The notes beneath the pieces were generated by a model. It ran no database searches. It was not told the origin of the DNA and saw only the letters and a program-made list of their open reading frames with translations. Shown here piece by piece: positions 12,890 to 55,049 of a DNA stretch of 64,000 nucleotides (position 1 is its first letter; each line of letters opens with the position of its first letter). The position numbers were made by a program, and so were the translations under genes. Origin of the DNA: Anthoceros angustus (lineage: Eukaryota > Plantae > Anthocerotophyta); contig VJWM01000284.1 of assembly GCA_010909165.1 (NCBI GenBank), positions 66,488 to 130,487 of the forward strand, written 5' to 3'.

Positions 12890-15800
12890 TATTTAACAGC
12901 ACAATTGTTTCTTAGGGCACACTAACAATTGGACTACCCGCGTAGGGCACTAACAAGTGGCGGCCCTGCACACTTGCGGAGATTGATTGCATGATGTTTT
13001 TAGCTAAGGATGGGCAGCATCCCATCCAAGTACTATCCGTCTTATGTGTGGAGTTCCAATGAACTCATGTCTGGATGTCAGTCCTTGAAAGGAGGACGCC
13101 AGCCCTGTTTTGGGCTTTTAACTTTTATAGACATGCTCACTATATGATCAACAAAACAAAATAGATAAAAAAACGTTACAAATTGTGCTCACACTAACAA
13201 TTACATAAAGCTAGGTATGATGGCATAGTTTCAATACGTTCTAAGAAGATCTGTAAACACTAGGGCCATTGTACCAAGAAGAGTTCTAAACGCCAGGACC
13301 ACCATAAAATAGCCAAGTACCTCTAGTTAGACATGGACCATATGGCTGATCGAAAAACATCTTCGAATTATAGTTTTGCGGATTTGATTCCAATATTTTC
13401 AGATCCCCAGAATTCTCAACTTTATGTGTAATTAAATTATTAGCCTCATTCGCCGTGAAATAAAACAAATCGGCAAGATATGCTGGAGTATCATTGTCAC
13501 CACAAGGTACTGGACCCACTGCTGTAGAACCAAATCGTCCATTCCCCATTGCTACCGGCGAGTCTGGAGGTGATCGATATACCTCGCCTCCAAACATAAT
13601 ATCTGATGTGAATTGTTGAAGAGAATCTGGTGAGTAGATGGAGAAAGGCCAATAACCTACCGGCTTATTATTAATATACAACCACCAATTATCCGAAATC
13701 TTGCTCTTCATTATAAATATGCATCAAGGAAACAAAATATATTAGAAATTTAAATATGAAAAAATATTTTACTACAGTAATAAGAATCAACAAAAAACCA
13801 AGATAAGTAGAGTGTCATATACTTTGTAGATTGTAAATAGTAGACTTGTGCCCTCATAATTACCAGTAAAAGTTCCACCTAATAAATATTCTGAAGAAGT
13901 TTGGACAAATCCCGAGCATAAAAGATTATAACAACCAATAAAACGATAACCATCCGATCACAAGAACACAAAAACTCTAGTTAATCATAGAACACAAAAA
14001 AACTATTAGAGTTATTAAAACTATTCAAGGATTTATTTAGCACATACCGTCCAATATACAAACAAACGAGGATCCGTACTTCCCGCGTAGTGTGATGGAT
14101 ACACCTGTGTACAATAAATTCAATTCAAATCAATTCACGAGAAAAAATTGATGGACCAAGATATCAAATGCATAATGTTTACACTAAACCATAAGCAGAA
14201 CTTAGAAGACAAAATTTCTCAAATGCCTTACATGCCATCCCGCTTCAGCAGAGTTGAAGTCTTTTGTGTTCTGATTGATCACCCACATTTGGGAAAGTGT
14301 AAAATCTGTTTGAGGTGTTATGGGTTTCCAAAGACTAATGTGTACTCCTCCCGTGATATTCTCCTGTAGATTTGTCACATCAAAGCCATAGTAACAATCT
14401 TTATATGTTCATCATTAACAAATACCTAGTATGTATGAAAATTGCAACACTAGAATAACAAAATGCGACAATTCAAACGCATACTTGATGTATTCTCAGT
14501 GGAGTAGTAATTGAATGGTTAAGTGGATGAAGGTTCAAGTCCTCGTGTCTTTTGATATACTCGAGCTTGATGGGTCTTGAATTTCTTCTTTCGACATGCG
14601 AATAGGAATGGTACCTTGGGACAAGAACCTACTTCCTTTTATACAATTGAACTGTGGATTTGCCAAATCTTCCATGCCCATTGTTACAGTAGTCCGAGGT
14701 GATCGATATACCGCCTCCAAACATAATATCCGGATGAATTGTTGAAGAGAATCGGTGAGTAGATGGAGAAAGGCCAATAACCTACCGCTTATTATTAATA
14801 TACAACCACCAATTATCCAAATCTTGCTCTTCATTATAAATATGCATCAAGGAAACAAAATATATTAGAAATTTAAATATGAAAAAATATTTTACTACAG
14901 TAATAAGAATCAACAAAAAACCAAGATAAGTAGAGTGTCATATACTTTGTAGATTGTAAATAGTAGACTTGTGCCCTCATAATTACCAGTAAAAGTTCCA
15001 CCTAATAAATATTCTGAAGAAGTTTGGACAAATCCCGAGCATAAAAGATTATAACAACCAATAAAACGATAACCATCTGACTGCGCAACACAAAAAACTC
15101 TAGTTAATCATAGAACACAAAAAAACTATTAGAGTTATTAAAACTATTCAAGGATTTATTTAGCACATACCGTCCAATATACAAACAAACGAGGATCCGA
15201 TTTCGTGAGTGTGATGGATACACCTGTGTACAATAAATTCAATTCAAATCAATTCACGAGAAAAAATTGATGGACCAAGATATCAAATGCATAATGTTTA
15301 CACTAAACCATAAGCAGAACTTAGAAGACAAAATTTCTCAAATGCCTTACATGCCATCCCGCTTCAGCAGAGTTGAAGTCTTTTGTGTTCTGATTGATCA
15401 CCCACATTTGGGAAAGTGTAAAATCTGTTTGAGGTGTTATGGGTTTCCAAAGACTAATGTGTACTCCTCCCCCGTGATATTCTCCGTGTAGATTTGCTGT
15501 CACATACTGAAAGCCATAGTAACAATCTTTATATGTTCATCATTAACAAATACCTAGTATGTATGAAAATTGCAACACTAGAATAACAAAAATGCGACAA
15601 TTTCAAACTGCATACTTGATGTATTCCTGCAGGTGGAGTAGTAATTGAATGGTTAAGTGGATGAAGGTTCAAGTCCTCAGGTCTTTTTGATATACTCTCG
15701 AGCTTCAGTAGGTCTTGAATTTCTTCTTTCGACATGCGCAGAATAGGAATGGTACCTTCGGGACAAGAACCTACTTCCTTTTTATACAATTGAACTGGTG

Positions 15801-32464: not shown

Positions 32465-33021
32465 AGTAACACCCCCTTAACGGGGTGGGGAAAACCACGC
32501 AGTTAGAAGCAAACTAGGGTAATAAATCAACACCAGACACAGCACTAGGCCTCCAAGTAGCCCGCCCTCCTCTTCTAGGAGGACTCATGAGACACTCTTG
32601 CCTGCTCTTTATTCTTAGATCACGAGTCAACAAGAACATACAATGGAGGGCTAGAGAGAACTCCCCATCTTTGCCTAAGCTAGGAGCTTAGCTCTCTTCA
32701 CTTGACCTCCTCCCAAAGCTCCTTCACAGACTCCTTCCGTGCTTCGCCCAAGCATCAAGTGCTCTCAAGGCATAGCCCAAGCATCAAGTGCTCTCAAGGC
32801 GCAACCCAAGCAACAAGTGCTCTCAAGGTTGAACTGCCTTTAGCTGTAGGCGGTCTCCTTTATACTCAAGCCCTAGCTACAATCTTAGTAACTACTTACT
32901 TAAGCTTTAAGCTATTATTTACTACCACACTTCCTGCATGCTTAACATGCTCTTAGTAAGCTCTTCTAAACATGCCTCTGCATGGAGCTTTCTTACAAGC
33001 ACTCAAGCCGACTTTGTTACT
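32465..33021 (-). mobile_element. LTR 1 (3' LTR) of the chromovirus-type Gypsy element
   Basis: Termini AGTAAC...GTTACT; preceded by CATAG (32460-32464); followed on + by tcctcccc (PPT on -). Confidence 0.9.
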
Positions 33022-36000
33022 TCCTCCCCACTAGGAAGAATCACTCGGTGATAACCAGTAATGAGCAATCATCCAGAGCCTTTCGGATATCCTCTAGTGT
33101 TACCTGGTATTGAGATCCCATCTTTACCATGTATTGTGGTAGAGTTCCACGTCTGCCACGCTACCTTAAGGAATTCTTCAATCTCCGCGGTCCTTGATCA
33201 TCTTTGCGAGGATCTTCTTCCTCCATGTCCTCTTTCTCCTTGCACAAATGGCTTCAGTGAAACATGAAACACATTGTGTGCAAAAATCCGGTGAGCAAGT
33301 CCAACTTATAAGCGACTTCTCCAATGCGCTTAAGGACAACATAAGGACCTCCATACTTTGGCCTCAACTTTAGAGACAAACCTTGGCGTGTGAAATGCTT
33401 CAATTTCACCCAAACCTTATCCCCAACATTGAAGGCAGTTTCTCTCCTTATCATATCTCTTGGCGTGCTTGAGCCTTGGCTAATATCTTTTGGCAATCTC
33501 ATGCCTAGCCTTCAAGCTCAACAAATTGGCGTGGATCTCTGTGGTAGTATCGAAAACTTCATTTAGCATGGATACTACATCCGGTTTCCACTCATCTCAA
33601 AGGGACTATATCCCCAAGGAGCTATATGCGGTGTTGTAACAAAACTCGCATCATCAAGATGATCACCCAATCTCATCAATCGCACATAGTGCCTCAAGTA
33701 TTCTTCTTGGATTCGGTTGACTCGCTGTTAGCCCATCGATGATCGGATGGTATGCGTACTCATGCATAAGCGCACATTCAAACTTCTCATCAAGTCTGCC
33801 AAAATTCTCCGTGAATCTTGGATCTCTATCACTCACAATGCGGGCAAGCCATGATACTTGTACACATACTTCTTGAACAAGTTGGCCCTCGAGCGGTCAC
33901 TCGCTTCTTGGTGGGGATGAAGTGCTTGCAGTGAACCTATCCTGCACCATGATAGTGTAAACCATTCTTTGGGAGGCAAAGGCATGATGAAGTCCATAGA
34001 AATACTTTTCCATGGCCCTCTTGGAATAGGTAGAGTAACAAACCTCTTGGTTTAGCCTTTGTCTACCTTATCCTGGACAAACAAGACATGCCTTGACATA
34101 GTCTAATGTATCTTGATACATTCCTCGATAAAGCCTTCAACTTCTCATAAGTTGAATCACCTCCACAGTGACACGGCACATCATGACATTCAAAGTAACT
34201 TCTTCTTCAAGCCTCTGAGTTAGGAATCACAACTCTCTTACATTTGTATATCAACAAACCATCTCGAGTTTGAACTTGCTTCCTTTCTGCCACCCCATTC
34301 ATCCGATCCACTTGAGATCTTGCGGATAAGCTTCCTTAATCTCTTTGTGAGTATCCACAGGCTCAATCACACTTGCCATTGCCTTGATCCTTGACTCTTT
34401 GCGACTCAACGCGCAACCTTATTCTCCTTTCCGGGTTTGTATTTGAGTCATCATACATAGCTAGGAATCACGCCATCTAGCTTGCCATTCAACTTCAATT
34501 GGTTGAGAAGTATGTTGTCTTGATATTATCGATTATGACACAAAAGACCTACCAAGAGATAGTGCCTCCAAGCCTTTAGGCGTGGATGGCGGTCATTTCC
34601 TTCTCATAGGTGGGATACTTCATCTCATAAGGATGCAACTTCCTTGACTCAAAAGCTAATGGCTTTTGGTCACATCAAAACTCCACCTATAGCCATGTCG
34701 AGGCATCACAATACACTTCTACATCTTTCTTGGGGTCATACATTCCCAACAGGAGTAGTACTCAACTTCTCTTTCAAGTATTCAAAGGCTTGACAATCAG
34801 ATCCACTTCCAAGCTTTTGATGTCTTCAAGAGGTCATTATGTGCTATCTTAGCAAACATATGTACAAACCTCACATGCAGAAACCCATAAAGCTCGTACC
34901 TCATGAATGTTCCGAGGCTGCCAATCTTGAATGGCTTTAACTTTATCGGGATCCATCACGATGCCCTCGGCAGACAATAAAACCTAAGAATGGAATCTCT
35001 TGGCGAAATCACACTTCTTGATTGCCAAGAACAAAGAATTCTCTCTTAGCTTTTGTAACACTTCTCTTAAGTGTTCAAATGTTCCTCAAGGTATGGCTAA
35101 AGATCAAAATGTCATCCGGATAGATTACAACACACTTGTCCACGGATCTATGAATATAGTATTCATAAGTGTATCGAAATGTGTGCATTAGTAAGTCCAA
35201 ATGGCATGACCAAATTCAAAAGCCCCATACACGGTCCTACAATTTGTACTCATGCCCCTCGATCGATCGATAGTACCGCCGCCAGATCCGGTGAAATACT
35301 TCAACCGTCAACATATCATCCATTCTAGGCAAAGGATATGCATTCTTGATTTAATCGATTCGAGCTCGTAATCCGACATCGAGTCCTCCATTCTTTTGCG
35401 TGAACAATACAGCGCGCAAGGAGACTTAGAAACTCGACATATCCCTTTGCCAGTTGGATAGTTGTCGCTTGAGTTCTTGCAACTCATCCGACAATCTATC
35501 TCGGTGCTCTTGAAGGAGGCGTACTCCACGGCTTCAATTCAATCTCATGATCTACTACTGCGAGGCGGCAATGGTGGCAACTCATCGGCATCAAATCCTT
35601 GAACTCATCCAAGATAGCTTGTACTTCTTTTGGGATGTCTTTCACCTCAGTGGAATCTTCTTCTAGACCATCCTCTAGTCCTTGGAGTACAACTAAGTAT
35701 AGCTCCTTCTTTTCCGAGATCCTTCTTAAGCTCTCTTTTGAAATTGTCTTGATGGAGTCTCAAGCTTAGCTAACACTAGCACAACTCACCTTGTGCTTCT
35801 TGGATATCTCAATAGTGCGAGACTTAACATCCATATACACTTCATTGGATCTCATCCACTCCGGGCCTAAGATGATATCATGGTCATCCATCTCGACGGA
35901 AACTCTCATTTCCTTGCCATGCTTGACTTGCAGCTTTACTCCATGCAATTCACCCGAAATTGAGTCCCTTTAGCTTGCTTGATTCCATATGGCGTGGAAG

Positions 36001-37272
36001 TTTCATCCATTCAAGACCAAGCTCTCTTGCCTTACTAGGAGTTATAAAATTGTGGGTGGTGCAGTCCAACAACAACTCTACATCTAAGCCATTCATCTTC
36101 CACATATATACATGAGATCTCCACCTTTCCTCATTATAGTGTCATCCTTGACACTAGATGACTCACCACATGTCTTCACAACATGTGGCCCCAGCGTCTG
36201 GGCTCCTCGGGAAGTTCTTGAATCCGGCTCTTGGAGCAGGTGGATTGGCAAACCAAATTCAAGTTGGGAGCTCCAACATGTGGACAATTCTAGCAAAGTG
36301 TCCTTCTCCATAGTAACACACACACAGCTAGGCACTTGTTGCCGTCTTCCGACCCCAGTATCTCCTCTAGCTCGGCCTCTGCCCGAGTCTCATTGGTTCC
36401 ACTATTCAGTGGTGGTGGCACTCCTCTCCTCTAGATCTACCGAGACCTAGGATATCTTCCTCTTGATACGGTGCCTCTTGAATAAACATATCCGGTATAG
36501 CATCTGCGCCATGGCCTCTTGCAGTGTTTGAGGATTAGTCAAAGCTATCCTATTTTGAGCCCATCTCTTAAGGCCGGTGATAAACTTGTGGAGTTTGTCC
36601 GCTCATGCATCTCTGGACATTGCAAGACAATAGAGCTAAACTCACTCACATACTCCGCAAAGTTCCGGTATGCTTGACATTGTCGAGCATCCTTGTAAAC
36701 TCTGCATTAGCGGGTTGGAAAGCGAGTTGCGGCTTGCTTGAAGTCGCCCATGTGAAGATTGTGGCTCTGCGATTGCCTTGCCTTACGTTCTCAACGTAAG
36801 TCCTCCACCAAGTAAGAGCATAATCCTCTAAGAAATTCGTGTGCTTGGTACTCATCTTGCGGCACTCATGATTCGATGCGCTTCAAGAGAAAAACCAAGG
36901 CGATTTTCTCGTCACGCTCGCCTTTATAAGTCTTTGGGGCTGTATGCTCCCTCAACTTCTTAGACTTTTGGCGGTCTTGCTCTCGAGCTCGGGCTCCACT
37001 TCTTGGCTCTTCTTCAACGAGCTTTACTTTAATCTCGATCCATGGCATCAAGTCTCCTCATGATCTTTTGGGATGGTCCTCTATGGTGGTGCGGTCCTCT
37101 GCTCAAGTTCCTTCCTCCATTCTCACAACTTGCGGACTCGTGGCTCTTCCACGCCGATAGCGGGGCCTTATCTTTCCGGGCGTATCCTTTCCACTCTACT
37201 TGGCTCGGCGGGATCGCCATCTCCACTAGCGTACTAGTCAAAGATGCTTCAACCTATGCTCACGATACCACA
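33022..37272 (-). mobile_element. Full-length but frameshifted Gypsy/chromovirus internal region (gag, protease, RT, RNase H, integrase, chromodomain-like end)
   Basis: PBS tggtatcgtgagc (37270-37258); gag LEDYALTWW; protease-like VELLLD..THNF; DIILGPEWM; RT and RNase H remnants; KLRPKYGGPYVVLKRIGEVAYKLDL; QYMVK-like chromodomain remnant. Confidence 0.9.
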
Positions 37273-37800
37273 AGTAACACCCCCCTCAGCGGGGTGGGGA
37301 AAACCACGATTAGAAGCAAAAATAGGGTAATAAATCAACACCGGACACGGACTAGGCCTCCAAGTAGCCGCCCTCCTCTTCTAGGAGGACTCAGAGACAC
37401 TCTTGCGCTCTTTATTCTTAGATCACGAGTCAACAAGAACATACAGTGGAGGGCTAGAGAACTCCCCATCTTTGCCTAAGCTAGGAGCTTAGCTCTCTCT
37501 TCACTTGACCTCCTCCACAAAGCTCCTTCCACGGCCTCCCCTTAGTGCTTGTTAAGCAACAAGTGCTCTCAAGGCGCAACCCAAGCAACAAGTGCTCTCA
37601 AGGTTGGGCCCAGGCTCTTTAGCCAGGCGAGGTCTCCTTTATACTCAAGCCCTAGCTACAATCTTAGTAACTACTTACTTAAGCTTTAAGCTATTATTTA
37701 CTACCACACTTCCTAGGGCTGCATGCTTAACATGCTCTTAGTAAGCTGCTCTTCTAAACATGCCTCTGCATGGAGCTTTACAGCACTCAAGCCGACTTGT
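37273..37800 (-). mobile_element. LTR 2 (middle LTR), missing its last few bases on the right
   Basis: Near-identical to LTR 1 and LTR 3; starts AGTAAC after the PBS; ends ...gccgacttgt instead of ...gactttgttact. Confidence 0.9.
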
Positions 37801-38121
37801 AGTGTGTGGAACAATGTCATCCACAGCGCCACAGGGAAAGAGGGACGTGGGGCACCCTTCAGTAGGTCCTGCCAGAACCGAAAGACTGGAAACTCCTCCA
37901 TCCGCAGTCTCCCCGCGCCGGTCGCCGCCCCTCCCATCATTTTGAAGGGAATGACACAGTTCGTAGTTATGGTGTTGGCAGAAAAATTAAAAAAAAACAT
38001 ACCTTCAAGAAAATAAAATAAATATTTGAGCAGAAAATTCGCAGGAAAACCCCTCATCATTCTGGGGTTAAGCAGGCACTTCCACCCACCAATGAGCACT
38101 TGGCCTACTTCTTTATTTTTC

Positions 38122-40317
38122 TCACGGTCGGCCCTTACAACTGCAATAACCAGCTGCGAATCGATGCACACGGTATCCATCTCTTACAACAATGTCTCTT
38201 TGTTCAAGCCTTGACATTATCTCCGTGGAACTGTGGCAGTCACTGCACATGCGTAGATTCTTCGTTACCACCAGAGGTGTCCCACTCGGAGTGTTCAACA
38301 GACCAAACGCTAGAGCTAGCTTCTCAGCATGCCCACAAAGCACATCTTCCTTTTCCCTCTCAGACACTGGCTTCAGCACCAACTTTGTGTGAGGTACGTG
38401 GCCTCCTTCTTGCTTCACACGTGCATTTGTGCTCTCTACCTTAAGCGCAATATCCTCTCCTTTCTCCCACCAAATCTATGTACCTGCTTATTCACCTCAA
38501 TGGTCGCCACTGCAGGTTTCTTGTTAGCTCCTGCTGCCTTCTCTGTGTTTCAATCCTGTCTACATCGGTCCACCTACCTGCATCTGCGTAGGCATTGGCC
38601 ATGAGCACACGCAGACGCCTGTTGAGGTCCAGCCTAACAATGCTTTCAAAACACCATCGCCCTCTCTATCCCGTGACTTTTGCAGGCATTCAACAAAGAC
38701 GTCAAGCCCACAACATTACTTTGGCCCTCACATGATAATAGCATCTTCTCTGCCTCATCTAAATGGCCTGCACGCCCAAGAAGATCAATCATGCAAGGTA
38801 ATGCTCAATAGTAGGTTTTGATGCCATGCTGTTCAGCCATGGAATCAAAGTGCTTGCGACCCTCTGGACCAGTCCCTCATGACTGCATGCTACTAGAAGG
38901 CAAGTAAAGTAGCATCATTAGGCTGAATACCGGCAACTAACATCTCCTCAAAACAAGCTAGTGCCTTGTGACCTTCATCACAAGTACCATACCCAGATAT
39001 CAGGGCATTCCATGTCACCACATCCTTTGTGCCATGCTGTCAAAAACCTGGCGTGCATCTTCCAGTTCACCACATTTTGCATACATGTCCACCAGGCAGT
39101 TGCCACAGGCAGTTATCCAGCAGTCCTCTTTCGACAATCTGTGAGTGCAGCTGCCTGCCCTTCTGTAAGGCACCAGTGCTTGCACAGGCCTTCAGAAGGC
39201 AAGCAAAAGTAACATGGTCAGCCAAAATGAGGCCCTCCTCCTCCATTTGTCCATACACAAGCGCCTCTTGGCCGAGTCCTTGCTGTGCATACCCAGCAAT
39301 CAGGGCATTCCATGTCACCACATCCTTTGTGGCCATGCTGTCAAAAACCTGGCGTGCATCTTCCAGTTCACCACATTTTGCATACATGTCCACCAGGCAG
39401 TTGCCCACCATTACGTCAGCAGTCCTCTTTCGACAATCTGTGAGTGCAGCTGCCTGCCCTTCTGTAAGGCACCAGTGCTTGCACAGGCCTTCAGAAGGCA
39501 AGCAAAAGTAACATCAGCCAAAATGAGGCCTCCTCCTCCATTTGTCCATACAAGCGCCTCTTGGCGAGTCCTTGCTGGGCATACCCAGCTATCAGGGCGG
39601 TCCATGTCACCACATTCTTCGTGGCCATGCTGTCAAAAACCCGGCGTGCGTCTTCTAGTTCACCACATTTTGCATACATGTCCAACAGGCAGTTGCCCAC
39701 CACTACGTCATCCAGCACTCCTCTTTTGACAATCTGTGAGTGCAGCTGCTTGCCCTTCTGTAAGGCACCAGTGCTTCCACAGGCCTTCAGAAGGCAAACA
39801 AAAGTAACATCGTCAGCCAAAATGAGGCCTTCTTGCTCCATTTTTCCATACACAACAAGCGCCTCATGTAGCCTTGCATACCCAGCAATCAGGGCATTCC
39901 ATGTCACCACATCCTTTGTGCCATGCTGTCAAAAACCTGGCGTGCATCTTTCAGTTCACCACATTTTGCATACCCAGCAATCAGGGCATTCCATGTCACC
40001 ACATCCTTTGTGCTGTCAAAAACCTGGCGTGCATCTTCCAGTTCACCACATTTTGCATACATGTCCACCAGGCAGTTGCCAACAAGTTAGTGAATGCCAC
40101 TGTGCACCACATCACAGTGCACTTTTCTGCCAGATTCCAAGTCGGCAAATGCACAAGCTTGAAGGGCAGCAAAGACGTGAGCATCCGCCTTCACTCCTGA
40201 CCTACGCATCTCATGGTACAGTTGTATGGCCTCATTAGGTTTCCCATGCTTAGCGTATGCGGAGATTATGGAAGACCACATGAAGGCATCTGGTTTGCCC
40301 CTGGTGAACACATCCAT
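38122..40317 (-). pseudogene. 5'-truncated, frameshifted PLS-class PPR gene with DYW:KP (GRP) domain, embedded in the LTR structure
   Basis: Repeated P-L-S motifs (VVTWNALIAGYAQQG, HVTFACLLKACASTGAL, VGNCLVDMYAKCGELEDAR). C-terminus HAEKLA..CSDCH..SCKGRP. Confidence 0.92.
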
Positions 40318-43300
40318 GGCCCTCTTGGAATAGGTAGTGTAACAAACCTCTTGGTTTAGCCTGTTCTACCTTATCCTGGACAAACAGACATGCCTTGACA
40401 TAGTCTAATGTATCTTGATACATTCCTCGATAGCTTCTTCAACTTCTCATAAGTTGAATCACCTCCAGTGACCCGGCACATCATGACATTTGACATTCTT
40501 AACTTCTTCTTCAAGCCTACAGAGTTAGGAATCACAACTCTCTTCTGTTTGTATATCAACAAACCATCTCTGAGTTTGAACTTACTTCCTTTCTCTGCCA
40601 CCCCATTCATCCAGTCCTGCACTTCAGGATCTTGCAGATAAGCTTCCTTAATCTCTTTGTGAGTATCCACAGGCTCAATCACAGTTGCCATTGCCTTCAG
40701 TCCTTGACTGTTTGCGACTCAACGCATCTGCAACCTTATTCTCCTTTCCAGGTTTATATTTTAGAGTCACATCATACATAGCTAGGAAATCCTGCCATCT
40801 AGCTTGTCTGCATTCAACTTTGGTTGGAAGTATGTTATCTTGATATTATCTGACAAAAGACCTACCAAGAGATAGTGCCTCCAAGCCTTTAGGCGGTGGA
40901 TGGCGGTCATTTCCTTCTCATAGGTGGGATACTTCATCTCATAAGGATGCAACTTCCTTGACTCAAAAGCTAACGGCTTTTGGTCCCATCAAAACTCCAC
41001 CTATAGCCATGTCAGGCATCACACTTCTACATCTTTCTTGGGGTCATACATTCCCAACAGGAGTAGTACTCAACTTCTCTTTCAAGTATTCAAAGGCTTG
41101 ACAATCGGCATCCCACTTCCAAGCTTTTGATGTCTTCAAGAGGTCGATTATGGGGCGCTATCTTAGCAAACATATGTACAAACCTCACACGAAGCCAAAC
41201 CCATAAAGCTCAGTACCTCATGAATGTTCCGAGGCCAATCTTGAATGGCTTTAACTTTATCGGGATCCATCACGATGCCCTCGAGACAATAAAACCTAAG
41301 AATGGAATCTCTCTTGGCGAAATCACACTTCTTGATTGCCAAGAACAAAGAATTCTCTCTTAGCTTTTGTAACACTTCTCTTAAGTGTTGACATGTTCCT
41401 CAAGGTATGGCTAAAGATCAAAATGTCATCCGGATAGATTACAACACACTTGTCCACGGATCTATGAATATAGTATTCATAAGTGTATGAAATGTGCATT
41501 AAGTAAGTCCAAATGGCATGACCAAAATTCAAAAGCCCCATACGGTCCTACAAGCTTTGTACTCATGCCCTCGATCCGATGATAGTACCACATCGGATCC
41601 GACAGTGAAATACTTGGCACCCTTCAACTGTCAACATATCATCCATTCTAGGCAAAGGATATGCATTCTTGATTGTAATCGATTCGAGCTCGTAATCCGG
41701 ACACAATCGAGTCCTCCATTCTTTTTCTTGGCGTGAACAATACAGCGCAAAGGAGACTTAGAAACTCGACATATCCCTTTGCCAGGGTTGGATAGTTGTC
41801 GCTTGAGTTCTTGCAACTCATCATGACAATCTATACGGTGCTCTTGAAGGAGGCGTACTCACGGCTTCAAGTCAATCTCATGATCTACTACTGCGAGGCG
41901 GCAATGGTGGCAACTCATCGGCATCAAATCCTTGAACTCATCCTTGTACTTCTTTTGGGATGTCTTTCACCTCATGGAATCTTCTTCTAGACCATCCTCT
42001 AGTCCTTGAGTACAACTAAGTATAGCTCCTTCTTTTCCGAGATCCTTCTTAAGCTCTCTTTTGAAATGTCTTGATGGAGTCTCAAGCTTGCTAACACTAG
42101 CACAACTCACCTTGTGCTTCTTGGATATCTCAATAGTGCGAGACTTAACATCCATATACACTTCATTGGATCTCATCCACTCCGGGCCTAAGATGATATC
42201 ATGGTCATCCATCTCGGCGTGAAACTCTCATTTCCTTGCCATGCTTCAACTTGCAGCTTTACTCCATGCAATTCGAGTGCAGTCCCTTTAGCTTGCTTGA
42301 TTCCATATGGCGTGGAAGTTTGTCCATTCAAGACCAAGCTCTCTTGCCTTACTAGGAGTTATAAAATTGTGGGTGGTGCGAATCCAACAACAACTCTACA
42401 TCTAAGCCATTCATCTTCCCACATATATACATGAGATCTCCACCTTTCCTCATTATAGTGTCATCCTTGACACTAGATGACTCACCACATGTCTTCACAA
42501 CATGTGGCCCAGCGTCACTGGGCTCCTCGGGAAGTTCTTGAATCCGGCTCTTGGAGCAGGTGGATTGGGCAACAAATTCAAGTTGGGAGCTCCAACATGT
42601 GGACAATTCTAGCAAAGTGTCACTTCTCCATAGTAACACACACACAGCTAGGCAGCATTCGCGTCTTCCACGACCCTGTTATCTCCTCTAGCTCGGCCTC
42701 TGGTAGTCTCATTGGTTCCACTATTCAGTGGTGGTGGCTCGTCCTCTCCTCTAGATCTACACGAGACCTAGGATATCTTCCTCTTGATACTGGTGCCTCT
42801 TGAATAAACATATCCGGTATAGCATCTGCGCCATGGCCTCTTGCAGTGTTTGAGGATTAGTCAAAGCTATCCTATTTTGAGCCCATCTCTTAAGGCCGTG
42901 ATAAACTTGTGGAGTTTGTCCGCTCATGCATCTCTGGACATTGCAAGACAATAGAGCTAAACTCACTCACATACTCCCAAAGTTCCGGTATGCTTGACAT
43001 TGTCGAGCATCCTTGAACTCATTGCATTAGCGGGTTGGAAAGCGGAGTTGCGGCGCTTGAAGTCCGCCCATGTGAAGATTGTGGCTCTGCGATTGCCTTG
43101 CCTTACGTTCTCAGCGTAAGTCCTCCACCAAGTAAGAGCATAATCCTCTAAGAAATTCGTGGCGTGCTTGTGCTCATCTTGCGGCACTCATGATTCAGTC
43201 CAAAGAAAAACCAAGAGCGATTTTCTCGTCACGCTCGCCTTTATAAGTCTTTGGGGCTGTGCTCACCTCAACTAGACTTTTGGCGGTGCTCTGCTCGCTC

Positions 43301-43569
43301 CACTTCTTGGCTCTTCTTCAACGAGCTTTCGCCTTTAATCTCGATCCATGGCATCAAGTCTCCTCATGATCTTTTGGAGTGGTCCTCTATGGTGGTGGGT
43401 CCTCTGCTCAAGTTCCTTCCTCCATTCTCACAACTTGCGGACTGTGGCTCTTCCACGGCCCCGGGGGCCTTATCTTTCCGTGCCTTTCCACTCTACTTGG
43501 CTCGTGAGGATCGCCATCTCCACTAGCGTACTAGTCAAAGATGCTTCAACCTATGCTCACGATACCACA
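40318..43569 (-). mobile_element. Second chromovirus internal copy (gag to integrase N-terminus), truncated at the PPR junction
   Basis: Colinear copy of ~34010-37272; PBS at 43567-43555; ends at PIPRGPW, just before the integrase core. Confidence 0.9.
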
Positions 43570-44128
43570 AGTAACACCCTCAGCAGGGTGGGGAAAACCA
43601 CGATTAGAAGCAAACTAGGGTAATAAATCAACACGGACCCTAGGCCTCCAAGTAGCCGCCCTCCTCTTCTAGGAGGACTCGCAGAAGCACTCTTGCACTC
43701 TTTATTCTTAGATCACGAGTCAACAAGAACATACAGGTGGAGGGCTAGAGAACTCCCCATCTTTGCCTAAGCTAGGAGCTTAGCTCTCTCTTCACTTGAC
43801 CTCCTCCACAAAGCTCCTTCACGGCCTCCCCTTGGGTGCTCCGCCCAAGCAACAAGTGCTCTCAAGGCATAGCCCAAGCATCAAGTGCTCTCAAGGCGCA
43901 ACCCAAGCAACAAGTGCTCTCAAGGTTGAACGCTCTTTAGCCGGGCGAGGTCTCCTTTATACTCAAGCCCTAGCTACAATCTTAGTAACTACTTACTTAA
44001 GCTTTAAGCTATTATTTACTACCACACTTCCTAGGGCTGCATGCTTAACATGCTCTTAGTAAGCTGCTCTTCTAAACATGCCTCTGCATGGAGCTTTCTT
44101 GCAAAGCACTCAAGCCAGCTTTGTTACT
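43570..44128 (-). mobile_element. LTR 3 (5' LTR)
   Basis: AGTAAC...GTTACT followed by CATAG (44129-44133), matching the sequence left of LTR 1. Confidence 0.9.
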
Positions 44129-44330
44129 CATAGACTAAAATGAGTAGGTGTTCTGTTCTGTAGCATTCTCACGATTCACGAATCGAGCTCTTATTAAAAA
44201 TAATAATGCGAAAGAACGAACGTACATTCTGATGTCATGAAGAGAATGGAGGATCTATGTTCACATCCCGCTCCACGTTAGCACTTGCAGTTGCCCTACG
44301 CTGTCCCAGTTGTCGCTCCAGGCCGAGGGG

Positions 44331-46715
44331 ATGCGTCGGCGGGGACTGTTGTGGACCCAAAAAATTGGTGTTTGTACAGGGATTCTACGAGGAGCTCCCG
44401 CTCACCTCACTTCTGGGAGTCAACCCCTTGCAAACCACCAAGCCTCCAGGTGCAGCAGTTTAAGGAGCCCAGCATTTCCACTTTTTAGAAAATGTGTGGG
44501 TGTGGACGGGTTATCCTGCGATGGTCGTCGCCACGAGCAGGAGCACTTGTGGGAACAATTTTTTTTGGACCCTACCATGTGGTGGGACAACAGACGAGAT
44601 AAGTATAGCTCCCGTTCGCCTGACTTCCGGCGTAAGGGGTCCGGCGAGGTGCTGTGGTTAAATAGCATGTTTAAGCCAGCTTGGGTTGATGAGCAGCTCG
44701 TTTCCTTGGATATGCAGATGGGTCATGGTGCCTCTCCTTCCGGGTCCAGCTTTTCAGGCAAGCCTGAACCTGGCAGGCATGCAGGATCGGAAATGGGACT
44801 CGTTACGGCTGTAACCGTGAGCATGTTATGTCAGGAGGGGAAGCTTTCTGAGGCCGTTGAAGCCCTGGAATCCCTGGCGCTGGCACACTCTGCTATTTCT
44901 CAGTCTCTGTTTTACACTGTGCTGAAATTGTGTACAGCTAAGAAGGATCTGGTTGTGGGGCGACGAGTTCATGACCTCACTGTCAAATTCGGGTACGAGT
45001 CGGATGCATACTTGGGGAATCATATCTTGCGCATGTATGCATGCGGGGGTAGTCTGCAGGAGGCCATGGATGTGTTCACCAGGGTGGGCAAACCGAATGT
45101 CTTCATGTGGTTTTCCATAATCTCTGCGTATGCTAAGCATGGAAAACCTAACGAGGCCATACAACTGTACCATGAGATGCGTAGATCAGGAGTGAAGGCA
45201 GATGCGCACGTCTTTCTAGCTGCCCTTCAAGCATGTGCATTTGCCGCCGACTTGGAGTCTGGCAGAAAGGTGCATTGTGATGTATTGCACAGTGGCATTC
45301 CTGTTAACTTGTTCGTTGGCACCTGCCTGGTGGACATGTATGCAAAATGTGGCGAACTGAAAGATGCACGCCAGGTTTTTGACAGCATGAACACAAAGGA
45401 TGTGGTGACATGGAATGCCTTGATTGCTGGGTATGCAAAATTTGGCGAACTGGAAGATGCACGCCGGGTTTTTGACAGCATGAACACAAAGGATGTGGTC
45501 ACTTGGACGACGCTGATTGCTGGGTATGCACAGCAAGACCTAGGACATGAGGCGCTTGTTCTGTATGGACAAATGGAGAAGGAGGGCCTCATTTTGGCTG
45601 ATCATGTTACTTTTGCTTGCCTTCTGAAGGCCTGTGCAAGCACTGGTGCCTTACAGAAGGGCAGGCAGCTGCACTCACAGATTGTGGGAAGCGGACTGCT
45701 GGACAGTGTACTAGTGGGCAACTGCCTGGTGGAAATGTATGCAAAATGTGGTGAACTTGAAAATGCACGCCAGGTGTTTGACAGCATGGCCACAAAGGAC
45801 GTGGTGACATGGACCGCCCTCATATCTGGGTATGGTACTTGTGATGAAGGTCACAAGGCACTAGCTTGTTTTGAGGAGATGTTAGTTGCCGGTATTCAGC
45901 CTGATGGTGCTACGTTTACTTGCCTCTTAGTTGCATGCAGTCATGAGGGACTGGTCCAGGAGGGTCGCAAGCACTTTTATTCCATGGCTCAACAGCATGG
46001 CATCAAACCTACAATTGAGCATTACACCTGTATGATTGATCTTCTTGGACGCGCGGGCCATTTACTTGAGGCTGAGAAGATGCTAATGTCATGTGAGGGC
46101 CAAAGTGATGTCGTGGGGTTGATGTCTTTGCTGAATTCCTGCAAAAGTTATGGGGATATAGCGAGGGCGACGTGGTGTTTTGAAAGCATTGTTAGGCTGG
46201 ACCCCCTTCAGGCGCCCCCATACGTGCTTATGGCCAATGCCTATGCAGATGCAGGCAGGTGGACCGATGTAGACAGGATCGAAACACAGAGACGGGCAGC
46301 AGGAGCTAACAAGAAACCTGCAGTGGCAAGCATTGAGGTGAATAAGGAGGTACATAGATTTGTGGTGGGAGAAAGGAGAGAAGATATTGTGTTCAAGGTA
46401 GATAGCATGAATGCCCGTCTGAAGCAGGAAGGAGGCCACGTTCCTCGCACAAAGTTGGTGTTGAAGCCACTGTGTGAGAAGGAAAAGGAAGATGTGCTTT
46501 GTGGGCATGCTGAAAAGCTAGCTCTGGCCTTTGGTCTCTTGAACACTCCGAGTGGGACACCTCTGGTGGTAACGAAGAATCTGCGCATGTGCAGTGATTG
46601 CCACAGTTCCACGGAGATCATGTCAAGGCTTGAACAGAGAGACATTGTTGTAAGGGATGGCTACCGTGTGCATCGATTCGCAGCTGGTTGTTGTAGTTGT
46701 AAAGGTCGACCATGA
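44331..46715 (+). CDS. PLS-class PPR protein with E1/E2 and DYW:KP (GRP) domain, putative organellar U-to-C editing factor, with an N-terminal OSB-type PDF motif
   Basis: Intronless intact ORF, first ATG at 44331. Transit-peptide-like start; WWDNR..SPDF..GEVLWL; 12 PLS motifs; KPAVASIEV, HAEKLA, CSDCH and terminal GRP. Confidence 0.95.
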   Translation: MRRRGLLWTQKIGVCTGILRGAPAHLTSGSQPLANHQASRCSSLRSPAFPLFRKCVGVDGLSCDGRRHEQEHLWEQFFLDPTMWWDNRRDKYSSRSPDFRRKGSGEVLWLNSMFKPAWVDEQLVSLDMQMGHGASPSGSSFSGKPEPGRHAGSEMGLVTAVTVSMLCQEGKLSEAVEALESLALAHSAISQSLFYTVLKLCTAKKDLVVGRRVHDLTVKFGYESDAYLGNHILRMYACGGSLQEAMDVFTRVGKPNVFMWFSIISAYAKHGKPNEAIQLYHEMRRSGVKADAHVFLAALQACAFAADLESGRKVHCDVLHSGIPVNLFVGTCLVDMYAKCGELKDARQVFDSMNTKDVVTWNALIAGYAKFGELEDARRVFDSMNTKDVVTWTTLIAGYAQQDLGHEALVLYGQMEKEGLILADHVTFACLLKACASTGALQKGRQLHSQIVGSGLLDSVLVGNCLVEMYAKCGELENARQVFDSMATKDVVTWTALISGYGTCDEGHKALACFEEMLVAGIQPDGATFTCLLVACSHEGLVQEGRKHFYSMAQQHGIKPTIEHYTCMIDLLGRAGHLLEAEKMLMSCEGQSDVVGLMSLLNSCKSYGDIARATWCFESIVRLDPLQAPPYVLMANAYADAGRWTDVDRIETQRRAAGANKKPAVASIEVNKEVHRFVVGERREDIVFKVDSMNARLKQEGGHVPRTKLVLKPLCEKEKEDVLCGHAEKLALAFGLLNTPSGTPLVVTKNLRMCSDCHSSTEIMSRLEQRDIVVRDGYRVHRFAAGCCSCKGRP

Positions 46716-47233: not shown

Positions 47234-48694
<1,461 letters not shown>

Positions 48695-49799: not shown

Positions 49800-50539
49800 C
49801 TCACCCTGGAACATATGAACCCAATCATCAGCCAATACTTACATTGCATTCTACATATGTACAACAATATATATATGTGTGTCCAAATGGCTTATTCCAA
49901 ATGTACATGCGGGAAAAGAAGGGAAAAACCCATCCACCCCAAAAACAAAGGGGGAAAAACCAAACGAAGGGCACCATGCCAAGGGGACTAGCCCCCACGA
50001 TCACAAATTTCAAAACTACCGACCGCCCGAAGAACTTTGTGGTCAGGGAAGTGAAAAGGCCTACTTACCACAGGTGTTGAAGAAGCTGTATCTCTTGTGC
50101 TCGCTGTCGTTCTTTACACTGCGTTGGCCAACGCCTTCTGCAGAGCGATGTAAACCCTCTTGCCGGAAGAAAGCAACAAAACAAGAAAGGGGGAGGCCAA
50201 CCCCATTCTTGCGGTTGTGATAAGCCTTGGCGCAGGTCGAACCTAGAGAAATCCTTGCCCATGGCTCTGTGAATCTAGATGGTAAGGGGAATGAAGGTGT
50301 GGCCGTCTTGCATAGGAGAGTACTTTGTGGACCTTAGCTGTCGCGCATTCCAAATGGACACACATTTATAATATAGATACCTAGATGGGGTGCCTAGGGA
50401 GTGGATGCCTTGGTACTAGTAGCTTAGGCACACCATGGCATACGTTGTCGAGTGCCAAAGTCTTAAGGATAGGAAAATTGGATCCAGGTGGACTAAAATA
50501 GACTTTTTTTCAATTAGGTTATTCGAGTCTACTAGGTAA

Positions 50540-51878
50540 AGGGCATACGAATCAAATGCATACTTGGAACCATATCCTGCATGTATTCATGGGAGGTAGG
50601 GTACAAGGGGCCATGGATGTGTTCACCATGGTGGGGAAACCAGATGCCTACACGTGCTCTTGCATAGGCTCCGCACATTCCAAGCACGGGAAACCAAATG
50701 AGGCGATTCAACTGTACCTTGAGATGCGTAGTCCAGGTGTGCAGGCGGATGCTCACATGTTTGTGGCTGCCTTTCAAGCTTGTGCACCTTCCGCCGACTT
50801 GGAATCTGGGAGAAAAGTGCTCTTCGATGTGTTGAACAGTGGCACTCATCCTGGCTTATTCGTTGGCAGCTGCCTGGTGGACTTATATGCAAAATGTGGC
50901 GAACTGAAGGATGCCCGCTGGATTTTTGATAGCTTGGTCAGAAGGGATGTGTTGACATGGACGGCTCTGATTGCAGGGTATGCAAATCATGGTGTTCGTC
51001 AAGAGGCGCGTTTTCTGTATGAACTAATGGAGCAAGAGGGAGTGATTGTGGCTGACCATGTTACTGTTACTTGCCTTCTCAAGGTCTGTGCCAGCGCTGG
51101 TGCCTTACAAAAGGGCAGGCAGATGCATTGACAGATTGTGTCAGGAGGACAGCTAGATAACACACTCATGGGCAACTGCCTGGGGGACATGTATGTAAAG
51201 TGTGGAGAAGTTGAAGATGCACGCCAGGTTTTGGACAATTTGGCCAAAAAGGATGTGGTGACATGGACGCCCTCATTGCCGGGTATGCATGCCACATAGC
51301 TGGGTATGCACAGCTGGGGCTGGGTGACGAGGCGCTTGTTCTGAGTGGACAAAGGGAGCTTGAGGGCCTGATTGTGGTGGCTATGTTACGTTTGCTGGCC
51401 TTCTGAAGGCCGAAGGTCTGTGCACGGGATGGTGCCTTACGGAAGGGCAGGCAGCTGCACTCCCTGGATAACTTACTAGTGGGCAACAGCTTGGTGGATA
51501 AGTATGCCAAATGTGGCAAAGTGGGAGATGCATGGCGGGTTTCTTGACGGCTTGTCCACAAACAATGTGGCTGACATGAACGGCCCGCATCGCTTCGGCC
51601 AAGAAGCGCTTGTTGTGTGCGGAAAAATGGAGCTGGAGGGCCTGATTGTGGCTGACGAAGTTACTTTCGCTTGCCTTCTGAAGGCCTGTGCATGCGCTGG
51701 TGCCTTACAGAAGGGCAGGCAGTTGCACTCACAGCGTATGGAAAGAGGAAAGCGATATCACATACTGGTAGTGGACATGTATGCAAAATGTGGCAAACCG
51801 GAAGATGCTCGCCTGGTTTTTGATAGCGTGGAAGCTGGACTCAATTTGTTATTATGCAACAAAACACAGTCGCTTTAG
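50540..51878 (+). pseudogene. PLS-class PPR pseudogene of the same family as 44331-46715; no E/DYW seen
   Basis: AMDVFTMVGKPD, KHGKPNEAIQLY, ADLESGRKV and FACLLKACACAGALQKGRQLH, with a stop at 51129-51131 and frameshifts. Confidence 0.9.
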
Positions 51879-52476: not shown

Positions 52477-53234
52477 CGTCCATCCCATTGGACTGTCGGT
52501 GTCGGAACTGCGTGCATGAGCAGCAGTTTGGCATTTCACGGAACCCAAAGGGTAGGTAGGTAGGTAGTTGAAACTGGAGTTCCTGGTACCGTTTGAATGA
52601 CCACCCAAATTTACATTTTCATAATATCACGTATGTAGCCAAAAACAAAAAACTGGAATGGAACGTTGGAGTTGGACTGGACTGAGGACTGCATCCCCCT
52701 CTCTCTATCTCTTCCGACTGTCCCTGACTCTCCTTACCGCGCTCCCGGCTTCTTCCCCGCTGCTGCCATCGCCTCTTCCGACAACAAGCCAAGCCCCTTG
52801 CTTCCTCGCCCTCGCTCCGTACATCCCTTTCCCTTTCCCGTCCCCGCCTCGCCTCGCCTCGCCGCTCGCTTCTCTGCCCCTCGGACTCTCTCCATTCCGC
52901 TATCGCCCCATCTGCATTGTGTGTTTGTGTGTGTAGGATTGGAGGTCAAATCTGGGCCGAGCTTTCCCGGAATTCGGTCAACAGGGAGTGTCAGTGCACA
53001 ATCCGATGCCCAGACCCAGCTCTAGATTGCGGTGTCGGATTCAGGGGAGGTGAAATTCGCAGCGGGGCATTCAGGAGCGGGCGGAATCGGATGCAGCAGA
53101 GACCGGGGGGACGGTGACAGGTGACGCCAACAGTGTGTCCCCTAATTCTGCCCGCATTGGCATTGCCGGATGCCAATTGGCGCGGAATCGAGCTGAATGG
53201 ATCTGAGCTGAAGGCGCGGAGGAAGTCCAGGGCC

Positions 53235-55049
53235 ATGGACCGGGTGGTGGGGTGGGCTGCATTGCTGCTGCTGCTGCAACTGTGTCTCCTCTTCAGCGCA
53301 GCAGGTATGCCAATGCCGATGGAGCGATGGCAGCAGTGCGGCCATGGAGGTCTGTGAGATGAATGCATTGCCAATTGTTGTTGCACTTGTGACGGTGGTG
53401 GGTGGTTTGTGCGCAGGATCGAAGCAAGTGGGAGTGTGCTGGGGGAGGTCGGCGACGGACCTGCCGCCGGCGTCGCAGACGGTGCAGCTGCTGGAGCAGT
53501 ACGGGATCACCAGGGTGCGCCTGTTCGACTCGGATTCCTCCAGCCTCAAGGCGCTGGCCGGGAGCAACATCGAGGTGATCGTGGGGGTGACCAACCAGGA
53601 GCTGCTGGGGCTGGCCATGTCGGGGGACGCGGCCAGCAAGTGGGTGGAGAACAATGTGGCGGCCTACGTGCCCAAGGTGAACATCAAGATGGTGGCGGTG
53701 GGCTCTGAGGTGCTCACCACCACTAACCTGTCGCAGTACCTGGTGTCGGCAATGATCAACATCCACACGGCGCTCACCAAGAAGCAGCTGGACGGGAGCA
53801 TCAAGGTGTCCACGCCCAACTCCATGTCCGTGCTGCAGAAGTCATATCCGCCCTCGGCGGGGAGGTTCAACGCCAGCCTGGAGGACGTGGTGGGGGACAT
53901 GCTCTCCTTTCTGCAGAAGACGGGCTCCGTCTTCATGATCAACACCTACCCCTACTACGCCTACGTGCAGGATCCCGGCAACATCAGCCTCAACTACGCC
54001 CTCCTCCAGGCCACGCAGCCCGTGGTGGATTCCGGCTCCGGGTTCAAGTACTACGGCCTCTACGAGGCGCAGGTGGATGCCGTCTACGCTGCTCTCAGCT
54101 TCTACAACTACTCGCAGATCACAGTGCTGGTGTCGGAGGCGGGATGGCCCTCCAAGGGGGACTCCGGGGAGACGGCGGCCACGGTGAACAACGCGCAGGC
54201 CTTCAACGGAAACCTGGTGAAGCACTCGCTGAGCAACCAGGGGACGCCCGGGAAGGTGGGCATGGAGATTGATGTCTACATCTTCGCACTCTACAACGAG
54301 AACGGCAAGCCGGGGCCAGCGTCCGAGCGCAACTGGGGGCTCTTCACGCCCGACCAGAAGCAGGTGTACCAGATCAGCTTCACCTCGTCCGGGAGTTCCA
54401 GCTCCGGGGGAGGAGGCGGGAGCGGCGGAGGAGGGAACGGCGGGGGGAACAAAGTCCGGGCCTGGTGCGTGGGGAGAACGAGTGCGTCCAATGCCAGCCT
54501 GCAGGCTGGGCTGGACTGGGCTTGCGGGCCGCAAGGCCAGGCGGACTGCGGCCCCATCCAGCCCGGGGGTCGCTGCTTCGTGCCCAACACCGTCTACAGC
54601 CATGCTTCCTATGCTTTCAACAGCTTCTGGGTCAGGAGCGGCTTCCAATCCCAAGCTTGCAATTTCTCTGGAGCTGCCACCTTGAGCACCACCGATCCAA
54701 GTGCGTTCTGCATCTTTTCCCTGCATTCCTTTCATCTTCCTGCCATGCTGCCCCGTGATGCTGGACATGGATTTTAAGCTCATGCCTTGGTGTTTCCTTT
54801 TCCTCTTTGGCAGGTACTGCAACATGCTTCTACCAATCAAGCGTAGGGTATGTTGCCGATGTGCAAGGAGGATGTTCCTTCCGTGTTCTTCATCTTTCAT
54901 TACCCGGCCTCACCCTCTGACTGTGGGATCTGGTTGCTTGTCTGTCGTTGAGCAGCTCGTCTGCAGGTGTGCTACCCTTGGAGCGGGGCAATCGAATAGC
55001 CATCATGGCAGCAGTGGCTCTCCTCTTCTTCCTTGTCAACTTCAACTAA
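53235..55049 (+). CDS. Glucan endo-1,3-beta-glucosidase (GH17) with X8/CBM43 domain and GPI signal; exons 53235-53304, 53417-54700, 54814-54847, 54956-55049
   Basis: Signal-peptide exon; VGVCWGR, AVGSEV, INTYPYY, VSEAGWPS, FALYNE..KPGPASERNWGLF; Gly linker; X8 WCV..LDWACG..DC..I.PGG.CF.PN..HASYAFN; hydrophobic C-terminal tail. GT-AG introns are phase-consistent. Confidence 0.95.

What the first reader, a model, noticed from the sequence alone, without database searches (positions are those of the whole stretch)
44544..44712. OSB-type PDF ssDNA-binding motif fused to a PPR-DYW:KP editing factor
Seen: HLWEQFFLDPTMWWDNRRDKYSSRSPDFRRKGSGEVLWLNSMFKPAWVDEQL lies in frame between the transit-like peptide and the PLS array. 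Known: W..FF..P..WWDNR..K....PDF.HK..GEALWL is the PDF motif that gives plant organellar OSB proteins their ssDNA binding, and DYW:KP domains are linked to U-to-C editing. Inference: the motif may tether the editor to nucleoids or transcription bubbles for co-transcriptional editing, or help unwind RNA. I cannot confirm whether this fusion has been described.
Basis: partly seen in the sequence, partly recalled or inferred. Interest (0 to 1): 0.78.

Follow-up and report, generated by a model that had tools for sequence, protein, structure and literature searches.

The report
Single-strand grip on hornwort RNA editor
This gene, likely from a hornwort, encodes a predicted U-to-C RNA-editing enzyme whose front end carries an intact copy of the small module that plant organelle proteins use to bind single-stranded DNA; the same pairing occurs in ferns and clubmosses, appears undescribed, and likely serves as an extra grip rather than as part of the editing chemistry.

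Summary
Bases 44541-44711 encode a complete OSB-type PDF motif (71.8 bits against a profile of OSB-type proteins; shuffles at most 12.3), in frame in an intronless 794-aa ORF (ATG 44331): leader, PDF, linker, PLS-PPR array, E1, E2 and a 133-aa DYW:KP domain of the hornwort GRP subtype. The fusion is a family trait. Related sequencing runs hold 47-119 variant contigs per motif site, amino-acid changes among copies avoid all 11 invariant residues, and two other KP proteins carry the motif. It is not specific to U-to-C editing: fern and clubmoss PPR proteins without a DYW domain carry it too, outside the KP clade, and 7 of 9 KP homologs with long leaders lack an intact copy. Best reading (0.45): an accessory, sequence-independent single-strand grip, likely acting on the target RNA. 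Nucleoid tethering is the main rival (0.27). No binding, targeting or expression was shown. Ten literature searches found no description, but the two key papers on hornwort editing factors were not available. Earlier notes of this scan report the architecture in mosses and liverworts. New variant of a known kind; interest 0.52.

The parts
44331..46715 (+). Intronless ORF, 794 aa from the first ATG: leader - PDF - linker - PLS PPR array - E1 - E2 - DYW:KP (GRP)
44331..44504 (+). Transit-peptide-like leader (residues 1-58): Arg/Ser-rich, no acidic residue before position 59, predicted disordered. Organelle targeting is inferred.
44541..44711 (+). OSB-type PDF motif (residues 71-127 from the ATG; predicted folded unit 62-130)
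44727..44780 (+). Gly/Ser/Pro-rich linker, predicted disordered (residues 133-150), with indels among related copies
44787..46109 (+). Helical head, then PLS array L1-S1-P1-L1-S1-SS-P1-L1-S1-P2-L2-S2 (motif types assigned by hand from length and sequence)
46110..46313 (+). E1 and E2 motifs
46314..46715 (+). 133-aa DYW:KP domain, GRP subtype: KP box, HAE, Lys88, CSDC, terminal GRP, stop
   Evidence: defining features from PMC9478123 and PMC11845758
40313..44128 (.). Repeated LTR-retroelement-like sequence ending about 200 bases upstream of the ATG; 91% identical to 34009-37793; weak retroviral protease match. Context, not part of the gene.
38112..40321 (-). Frameshifted GRP paralog (87-90% identical); its 5' end stops where the repeat begins, so its lack of a PDF motif is uninformative

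Best explanation
The gene encodes a PLS-type PPR protein with a GRP-type DYW:KP domain, a predicted organellar U-to-C RNA editor, and the PDF motif at its front end likely acts as an accessory, sequence-independent grip on single-stranded nucleic acid, most likely the target RNA itself. Steps: (1) Inferred: the leader directs import and is cut before residue 60, leaving the PDF domain at the mature N-terminus. (2) From established PPR biology: the PLS array reads the RNA sequence and the DYW:KP domain edits the base. (3) Predicted: the PDF motif folds as its own small domain on a flexible linker of about 20 residues. (4) Inferred: since PPR arrays run N-to-C along RNA 5'-to-3' (recalled), the domain sits at the 5' side of the bound site, far from the active site, where it would hold or open nearby single-stranded RNA and lengthen the editor's stay. 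It would raise efficiency without setting the site or the direction of editing. (5) Shown for the sampled proteins: the module is optional, being present, duplicated, decayed or absent among relatives.
For: Shown: intact motif with all 11 invariant residues. Variation among related copies gave 10 silent against 7 amino-acid-changing base differences (6 residues) in the motif, where 19-26% silent is expected at random (binomial p 0.0003-0.004), and none hits an invariant residue. AlphaFold2 gives pLDDT 93 for the motif alone and a separate folded unit between disordered stretches 1-58 and 133-150 in the full protein. Not tied to catalysis: 11 of 150 motif hits carry PPR arrays and 0 of 150 match the DYW domain; the 7 fusions long enough to place lie outside the KP clade (SH-aLRT 98, quick tree). 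Optional: 2 of 32 KP homologs have it, both among the 9 with leaders of 75 aa or more; contigs skip it or repeat it. PPR-borne motifs have their own signature, KPxWVD in 8 of 17 against 0 of 94 OSB-borne, which fits adaptation to a new setting. PDF-only proteins without an OB fold exist, such as an algal protein of a leader plus four motifs (P0018). The Chlamydomonas protein RB38/RBP40 binds U-rich RNA and destabilises a stem-loop (PMC3555230); that it is built of PDF repeats is recalled and was not confirmed by any search.
Against: The only binding data point to DNA: the OSB1 PDF motif suffices for ssDNA binding (PMC6963530), and OSB1 and OSB2 prefer ssDNA over RNA (PMC4166229). No RNA binding by this motif was tested. 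The RBP40 link comes from memory, and no listed paper held both RB38/RBP40 and OSB. The window's motif has a net charge of -2, and PPR-borne motifs are not clearly more basic than OSB-borne ones (p 0.07). The silent-change excess in the motif is not significantly greater than in its flanks (8 silent, 12 changing; Fisher p 0.33). The signature was picked after seeing the sequences, and the hits were chosen by likeness to the query. Designer GRP proteins edit at 22-26% with no such motif (PMC9478123), so it is not required.
Confidence: 0.45

Rival explanations
1. The motif keeps the OSB preference for ssDNA and tethers the editor to nucleoids (displaced strands of transcription bubbles, R-loops or replication intermediates), so that editing happens on nascent transcripts.
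For: OSB PDF motifs bind ssDNA and whole OSB1/2 prefer it over RNA. All invariant residues are kept. Many PPR proteins are associated with nucleoids (PMC10226603).
Against: Nucleoid association is reported for PPR proteins in seed plants, where 0 of 21 DYW:PG homologs had the motif, so the motif is not needed for it. One motif on a low-abundance editor would compete with abundant SSB, OSB and Whirly proteins for scarce ssDNA (inference). The signature differs from OSB motifs.
Confidence: 0.27
2. The motif is a protein-docking module: it links PPR proteins to each other or to a cofactor, for instance letting DYW-less E-type PPR proteins of ferns and clubmosses recruit a deaminase in trans.
For: All 7 long fern and clubmoss fusions end in or after the E motifs with no DYW domain. 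Split editing factors that borrow a deaminase are known (PMC10226603). The motif is rich in Trp and Phe.
Against: The window's protein has its own complete DYW domain. The motif lies at the end of the protein opposite the E motifs, where deaminase partners are thought to dock (recalled). The known activity of the motif is nucleic-acid binding.
Confidence: 0.13
3. The motif is a passenger: an old exon capture copied along with a retroposed GRP gene during its expansion, now neutral or merely a spacer in hornworts.
For: The gene is intronless and sits beside an LTR-like repeat, as described for retroposed hornwort PPR genes (PMC13386178). The motif is decayed or absent in 7 of 9 long-leader KP homologs and skipped in some contigs. 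The silent excess is not significantly above that of the flanks.
Against: The motif is intact in a GRP protein only 73% identical in its DYW domain (P0178) and in five named fern and clubmoss species. Amino-acid changes avoid all invariant residues, and the indels listed fall outside the motif.
Confidence: 0.15

Closest known systems
[quoted passage not shown] 2006, not read; known through PMC6963530, PMC4166229, PMC13393729)
   Same: The same 50-56 residue PDF motif with all invariant residues, behind a transit-like leader.
   Different: No OB fold. The motif is N-terminal (median relative position 0.06 in 14 PPR fusions against 0.59 in 45 OSB-type proteins) and is joined to a PPR array. It has Arg for the near-invariant His and the KPxWVD signature absent from 94 OSB motifs.
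PLS-DYW:KP proteins, hornwort GRP subtype (designer KP2 and KP3 of PMC9478123; Lys88 mechanism in PMC11845758)
   Same: KP box, HAE in place of HSE, 133-aa domain, Lys88, Glu at the position of PG Lys103, terminal GRP; groups with three other GRP proteins (SH-aLRT 99).
   Different: Carries an N-terminal PDF domain that the designer proteins lack (they use thioredoxin-His plus a consensus PLS array). PMC11845758 states that the activity of natural KP proteins is unknown.
PPR proteins with added nucleic-acid-binding domains (RRM-PPR such as PPR4; RRM-DYW and MORF-PPR fusions in PMC13386178; the domain list for moss PPRs in PMC9459714)
   Same: An extra nucleic-acid-binding module fused to a PPR array in one chain.
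   Different: The module comes from a DNA-maintenance family and has no Pfam model. The main text of neither paper mentions a PDF motif; their supplements were not searched.
Chlamydomonas RB38/RBP40 (chloroplast U-rich RNA-binding translation activator)
   Same: Recalled as a 382-aa protein of four PDF-like repeats; a 383-aa Astrephomene protein found here has that layout.
   Different: No PPR array and no deaminase. That P0018 is an RBP40 ortholog, and that RBP40 has PDF motifs, were not tested.

Membership tests
PDF motif (OSB type) | About 50-residue motif with the Pro-Asp-Phe signature, homologous to the C-terminal motif of OSB proteins | tested here: met
PDF motif (OSB type) | Binds ssDNA | not testable with these tools
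   needs a binding assay
OSB protein family | OB-fold/SSB-like domain ahead of the PDF motif | tested here: not met
   No SSB match in Pfam; only a 70-residue, mostly disordered leader precedes the motif. The protein is not an OSB.
OSB protein family | PDF motif(s) at the C-terminus | tested here: not met
   Motif at residues 71-127 of 794
PLS-class PPR-DYW editing factor | P-L-S triplets, then P2-L2-S2, E1, E2 and DYW in one frame | tested here: met
PLS-class PPR-DYW editing factor | Zinc-site residues HxE and CxxC and the C-terminal zinc ligands | tested here: met
   HAE, CSDC, and His plus CSC near the end
PLS-class PPR-DYW editing factor | Import into chloroplast or mitochondrion | tested here: inconclusive
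   Leader composition and disorder fit a transit peptide; no targeting predictor or experiment was available
DYW:KP, GRP subtype | KP box, 132-133 aa domain, Lys88, terminal GRP, Glu for PG Lys103 | tested here: met
   features as given in PMC9478123 and PMC11845758
DYW:KP, GRP subtype | Groups with other KP and GRP proteins in a tree | tested here: met
   33 KP rows on one branch (98), 4 GRP rows on one branch (99); quick tree of the P2-E2 block, careful search unfinished
DYW:KP, GRP subtype | Catalyses U-to-C editing at a matching organellar site | not testable with these tools
   No organelle genome or editome of this plant was available; no target was predicted

The most novel reading that the evidence does not exclude
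PDF-PPR fusion is an ancestral land-plant editor design: a built-in single-strand cofactor, captured once from an OSB gene before bryophytes and vascular plants split, kept across seed-free plants, amplified in the hornwort GRP clade, and replaced in seed plants by separate MORF and ORRM helpers. Natural U-to-C editors would need it for full activity, which would help explain why designer GRP proteins that omit it edit weakly, and adding it would improve synthetic editors.
Probability: 0.2. Interest if true: 0.8.

Novelty: new variant of a known kind. Interest (0 to 1): 0.52.

Why it matters
Both parts are known; the combination was not found in print in ten searches. The motif has no Pfam model, the recent OSB survey kept only proteins that also have an OB fold (PMC13393729), and PPR surveys look at repeats and C-terminal domains, so the fusion could fall between the two fields. 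It names a testable accessory domain on natural U-to-C editing candidates, whose activity is still unproven, and every designer KP editor described in the papers read lacks it. A deletion test in the existing E. coli assay would show whether it matters. It also bears on how hyper-editing plants without MORF proteins keep editing efficient.

Tried and rejected
No whole genome is held for this window, so no genome-wide count of PDF-bearing PPR genes was possible. Two word-based homolog searches with the motif found nothing, nor did the ESM Atlas or a PDB sequence search (best E 0.31); these blanks reflect sensitivity, as one search shows. Fold searches with the motif model gave no usable match (best Z 3.3 among 48,161 chains; none at E<=0.001), which neither shows a new fold nor hints at the ligand. 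A two-copy complex prediction of the motif gave no verdict (score 0.00, alignment not used). No RNA holder was listed as on record: runs marked RNA are guesses, so expression is not shown. Summed contig depth was not used as a copy number. Run X24 gave only 4 laid contigs. Gerke 2020 and Gutmann 2020 are not held, and Zaegel 2006 was not read. Rejected: chance resemblance; fusion of two neighbouring genes or an assembly chimera (single intronless frame, contigs of three other runs bridging motif and downstream gene, independent fused proteins); KP-specificity; reading the two window paralogs as losses (both are broken and lack the matching 5' region). The kinesin protein with PDF repeats (P0040) was set aside as a likely annotation merge, not checked. 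No target RNA was predicted. A search of earlier findings by sequence gave nothing.

Full report
Observation. The window holds a stop-free frame at 44241-46715 on the + strand. Its first ATG is at 44331 and gives 794 residues. Pfam finds PPR repeats, an E motif and a DYW deaminase, and nothing on the motif. By hand the array parses as L1-S1-P1-L1-S1-SS-P1-L1-S1-P2-L2-S2-E1-E2, followed by a 133-residue DYW domain that starts with a KP box, has HAE and CSDC, has Lys at position 88 and ends in GRP. PMC9478123 (passages and section 6 read) names GRP and DRH as the two hornwort variants of DYW:KP. PMC11845758 (passages) gives Lys88 as essential for U-to-C editing. The organism is therefore inferred to be a hornwort; no genome is held to check this.

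The motif is an OSB-type PDF motif. A search of 1.84 billion cluster representatives with the 63-residue motif gave 599 hits at E<=0.001, of which 150 were listed. Of these, 45 match Pfam SSB, and two clusters are named OSB1 by their sources. A profile from 46 motifs of 32 SSB-bearing hits scores the window motif 71.8 bits over its whole length, against 7.1 for the next of 2040 window pieces and 12.3 for the best of 1000 shuffles. The profile is partly circular because its members were found with the query. All 11 invariant columns of a 34-sequence alignment are kept; the near-invariant His after PDFx is Arg. AlphaFold2 folds the motif alone with pLDDT 93. In the full protein (mean pLDDT 86.7) it is a separate unit at residues 62-130, between disordered stretches 1-58 and 133-150. 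No solved fold matched.

The motif is probably part of the mature protein. The first 58 residues contain no Asp or Glu and are rich in Arg and Ser. In four related runs, the first mates of family homology appear abruptly in the bin 44316-44419, where summed depth rises from 13-162 to 2,266-41,005, and small insertions cluster at 44323-44329, just before the ATG. Minor frame-shifting variants also occur in the leader at 44413-44438. The next in-frame Met is inside the motif. Targeting and cleavage were not tested.

The fusion is a family trait. None of 24 listed runs holds half of the gene's words (best 0.47), so these are relatives or paralog pools. Contigs in X1 and X4 bridge the end of the motif to the start of the helical region, and contigs in X1 and X12 span motif and linker. 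Some contigs skip the motif (44481 to 44717, three runs including a presumed DNA run) or repeat it (44741 back to 44559). Of 37 listed base differences in 44490-44800, 17 fall in the motif: 10 silent and 7 changing 6 residues, none invariant. Random change would give 19-26% silent (binomial p 0.0003-0.004, treating sites as independent). The flanks had 8 silent and 12 changing, not significantly different (Fisher p 0.33), and their alignment is blurred by indels. Depth is not a copy number, and RNA labels on these runs are guesses.

It is not specific to DYW:KP. Of the 150 motif hits, 11 match the PPR part of the window protein and none matches its DYW domain; a twelfth, P0144, shows a decayed PPR start by eye. 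Sources name Adiantum capillus-veneris, Ceratopteris richardii, Pteridium aquilinum, a Selaginella and Diphasiastrum complanatum; two are unnamed. The 7 that reach the C-terminal block end in or after the E motifs and fall outside the branch that holds all 33 KP proteins (quick tree, careful search unfinished, few fern KP proteins and only angiosperm PG proteins sampled, so truncated members of an unsampled KP subclade are not excluded). That Selaginella lacks U-to-C editing is recalled. Conversely, among 53 proteins found with the DYW domain, 2 of 32 KP-type carry an intact motif (P0178, GRP; P0192, DRH) and 0 of 21 PG-type do. Only 9 of the 32 have leaders of 75 residues or more, so the rest are uninformative; two of the nine show weak remnants (7.7 and 3.3 bits). 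Of 3 GRP homologs, one has the motif, one has a 66-residue leader without it, and one is cut short. Unchecked notes of this scan report the same motif on PPR-DYW proteins of mosses and liverworts, lineages without DYW:KP according to PMC13386178 (passages). I did not test those claims.

Origin. In a tree of 111 motifs (58 columns, weakly resolved), 12 of 17 PPR-borne motifs, from hornwort-type and fern proteins, group together (SH-aLRT 91). Holding all 17 together gave a higher likelihood than the free search and was not rejected (p-AU 0.75), which allows but does not show one origin. KPxWVD occurs in 8 of 17 PPR-borne, 0 of 94 OSB-borne and 3 of 219 other motifs; the pattern was chosen after seeing the data. 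The window motif scores 87.2 bits against a profile of the other PPR-borne motifs. The gene is intronless and lies about 200 bases from an LTR-like repeat, in line with retroposition-driven PPR expansion in hornworts.

Mechanism. Shown: architecture, conservation, optional presence. Predicted: a separately folded domain on a flexible linker. From the literature: the OSB1 PDF motif is sufficient for ssDNA binding (PMC6963530, passages), and OSB1 and OSB2 prefer ssDNA to dsDNA or RNA (PMC4166229, passages). Inferred: on an RNA-bound PPR protein the motif is held next to RNA at the 5' side of the site, where even weak RNA affinity would act, while ssDNA is scarce and coated by abundant proteins. 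PDF-only proteins exist (P0018, four motifs, no SSB match), and the OSB survey lists no protein with both domains for Chlamydomonas (supplement rows seen) although PDF motifs are reported there. RB38/RBP40 binds U-rich RNA and opens a stem-loop (PMC3555230, passages), but its PDF content is only recalled. I give 0.45 to an accessory RNA-side grip, 0.27 to nucleoid tethering (PPR proteins are often nucleoid-associated, PMC10226603, passages), 0.13 to protein docking and 0.15 to a passenger. Designer GRP proteins edit at 22-26% without the motif, so it is at most an enhancer.

Known versus new. The protein is a member of the GRP subtype by every sequence feature tested. It is not an OSB protein, lacking the OB fold. 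Ten searches listed no paper describing a PDF-PPR fusion. The main texts of PMC13386178 and PMC9459714 have no PDF term, and that of PMC13393729 has no PPR term. PMC7027989 (passages) reports only the PPR expansion, and bioRxiv 10.64898/2026.10.24.761589 (passages) has no PDF term. The two main papers on hornwort KP factors are not held, Zaegel 2006 was not read, and most supplements were not searched, so a prior mention cannot be excluded.

Verdict. Real, conserved and apparently undescribed domain fusion; a new variant of a known kind. Interest 0.52.

Noticed in passing
window 38112-40321 (-) and 50502-51831 (+): Two broken paralogs of the gene, with many frameshifts; the first ends in GRP and is cut at its 5' end by a repeat. 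Some frameshifts may be sequencing errors.
   Followed up: partly
window 40313-44128 and 32465-37793: Two copies (about 91% identical) of a 3.8-kb LTR-retroelement-like sequence flank the minus-strand paralog on both sides.
   Followed up: partly
window 47234-48694 (-): Polyubiquitin gene with six repeats, tail to tail with the PPR gene about 500 bases downstream.
   Followed up: no
window 53212-54777 (+): Glycosyl hydrolase family 17 with an X8 domain (beta-1,3-glucanase type).
   Followed up: no
window 3720-4157 (+) and 13286-13723 (-): Two neprosin-domain gene pieces, apparently a local duplication.
   Followed up: no
proteins P0010, P0064 (names): Multi-PDF proteins are listed from the dinoflagellates Cladocopium and Yihiella, although the papers read restrict PDF motifs to green plants. 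Contamination or prey sequence was not excluded.
   Followed up: no
protein P0040: A Coptis chinensis gene model joins three PDF motifs to a kinesin motor; likely two merged genes.
   Followed up: no
proteins P0154-P0163: Annotated isoforms of two Diphasiastrum PDF-PPR genes differ in whether they include the PDF motifs, which hints at alternative 5' structure.
   Followed up: no
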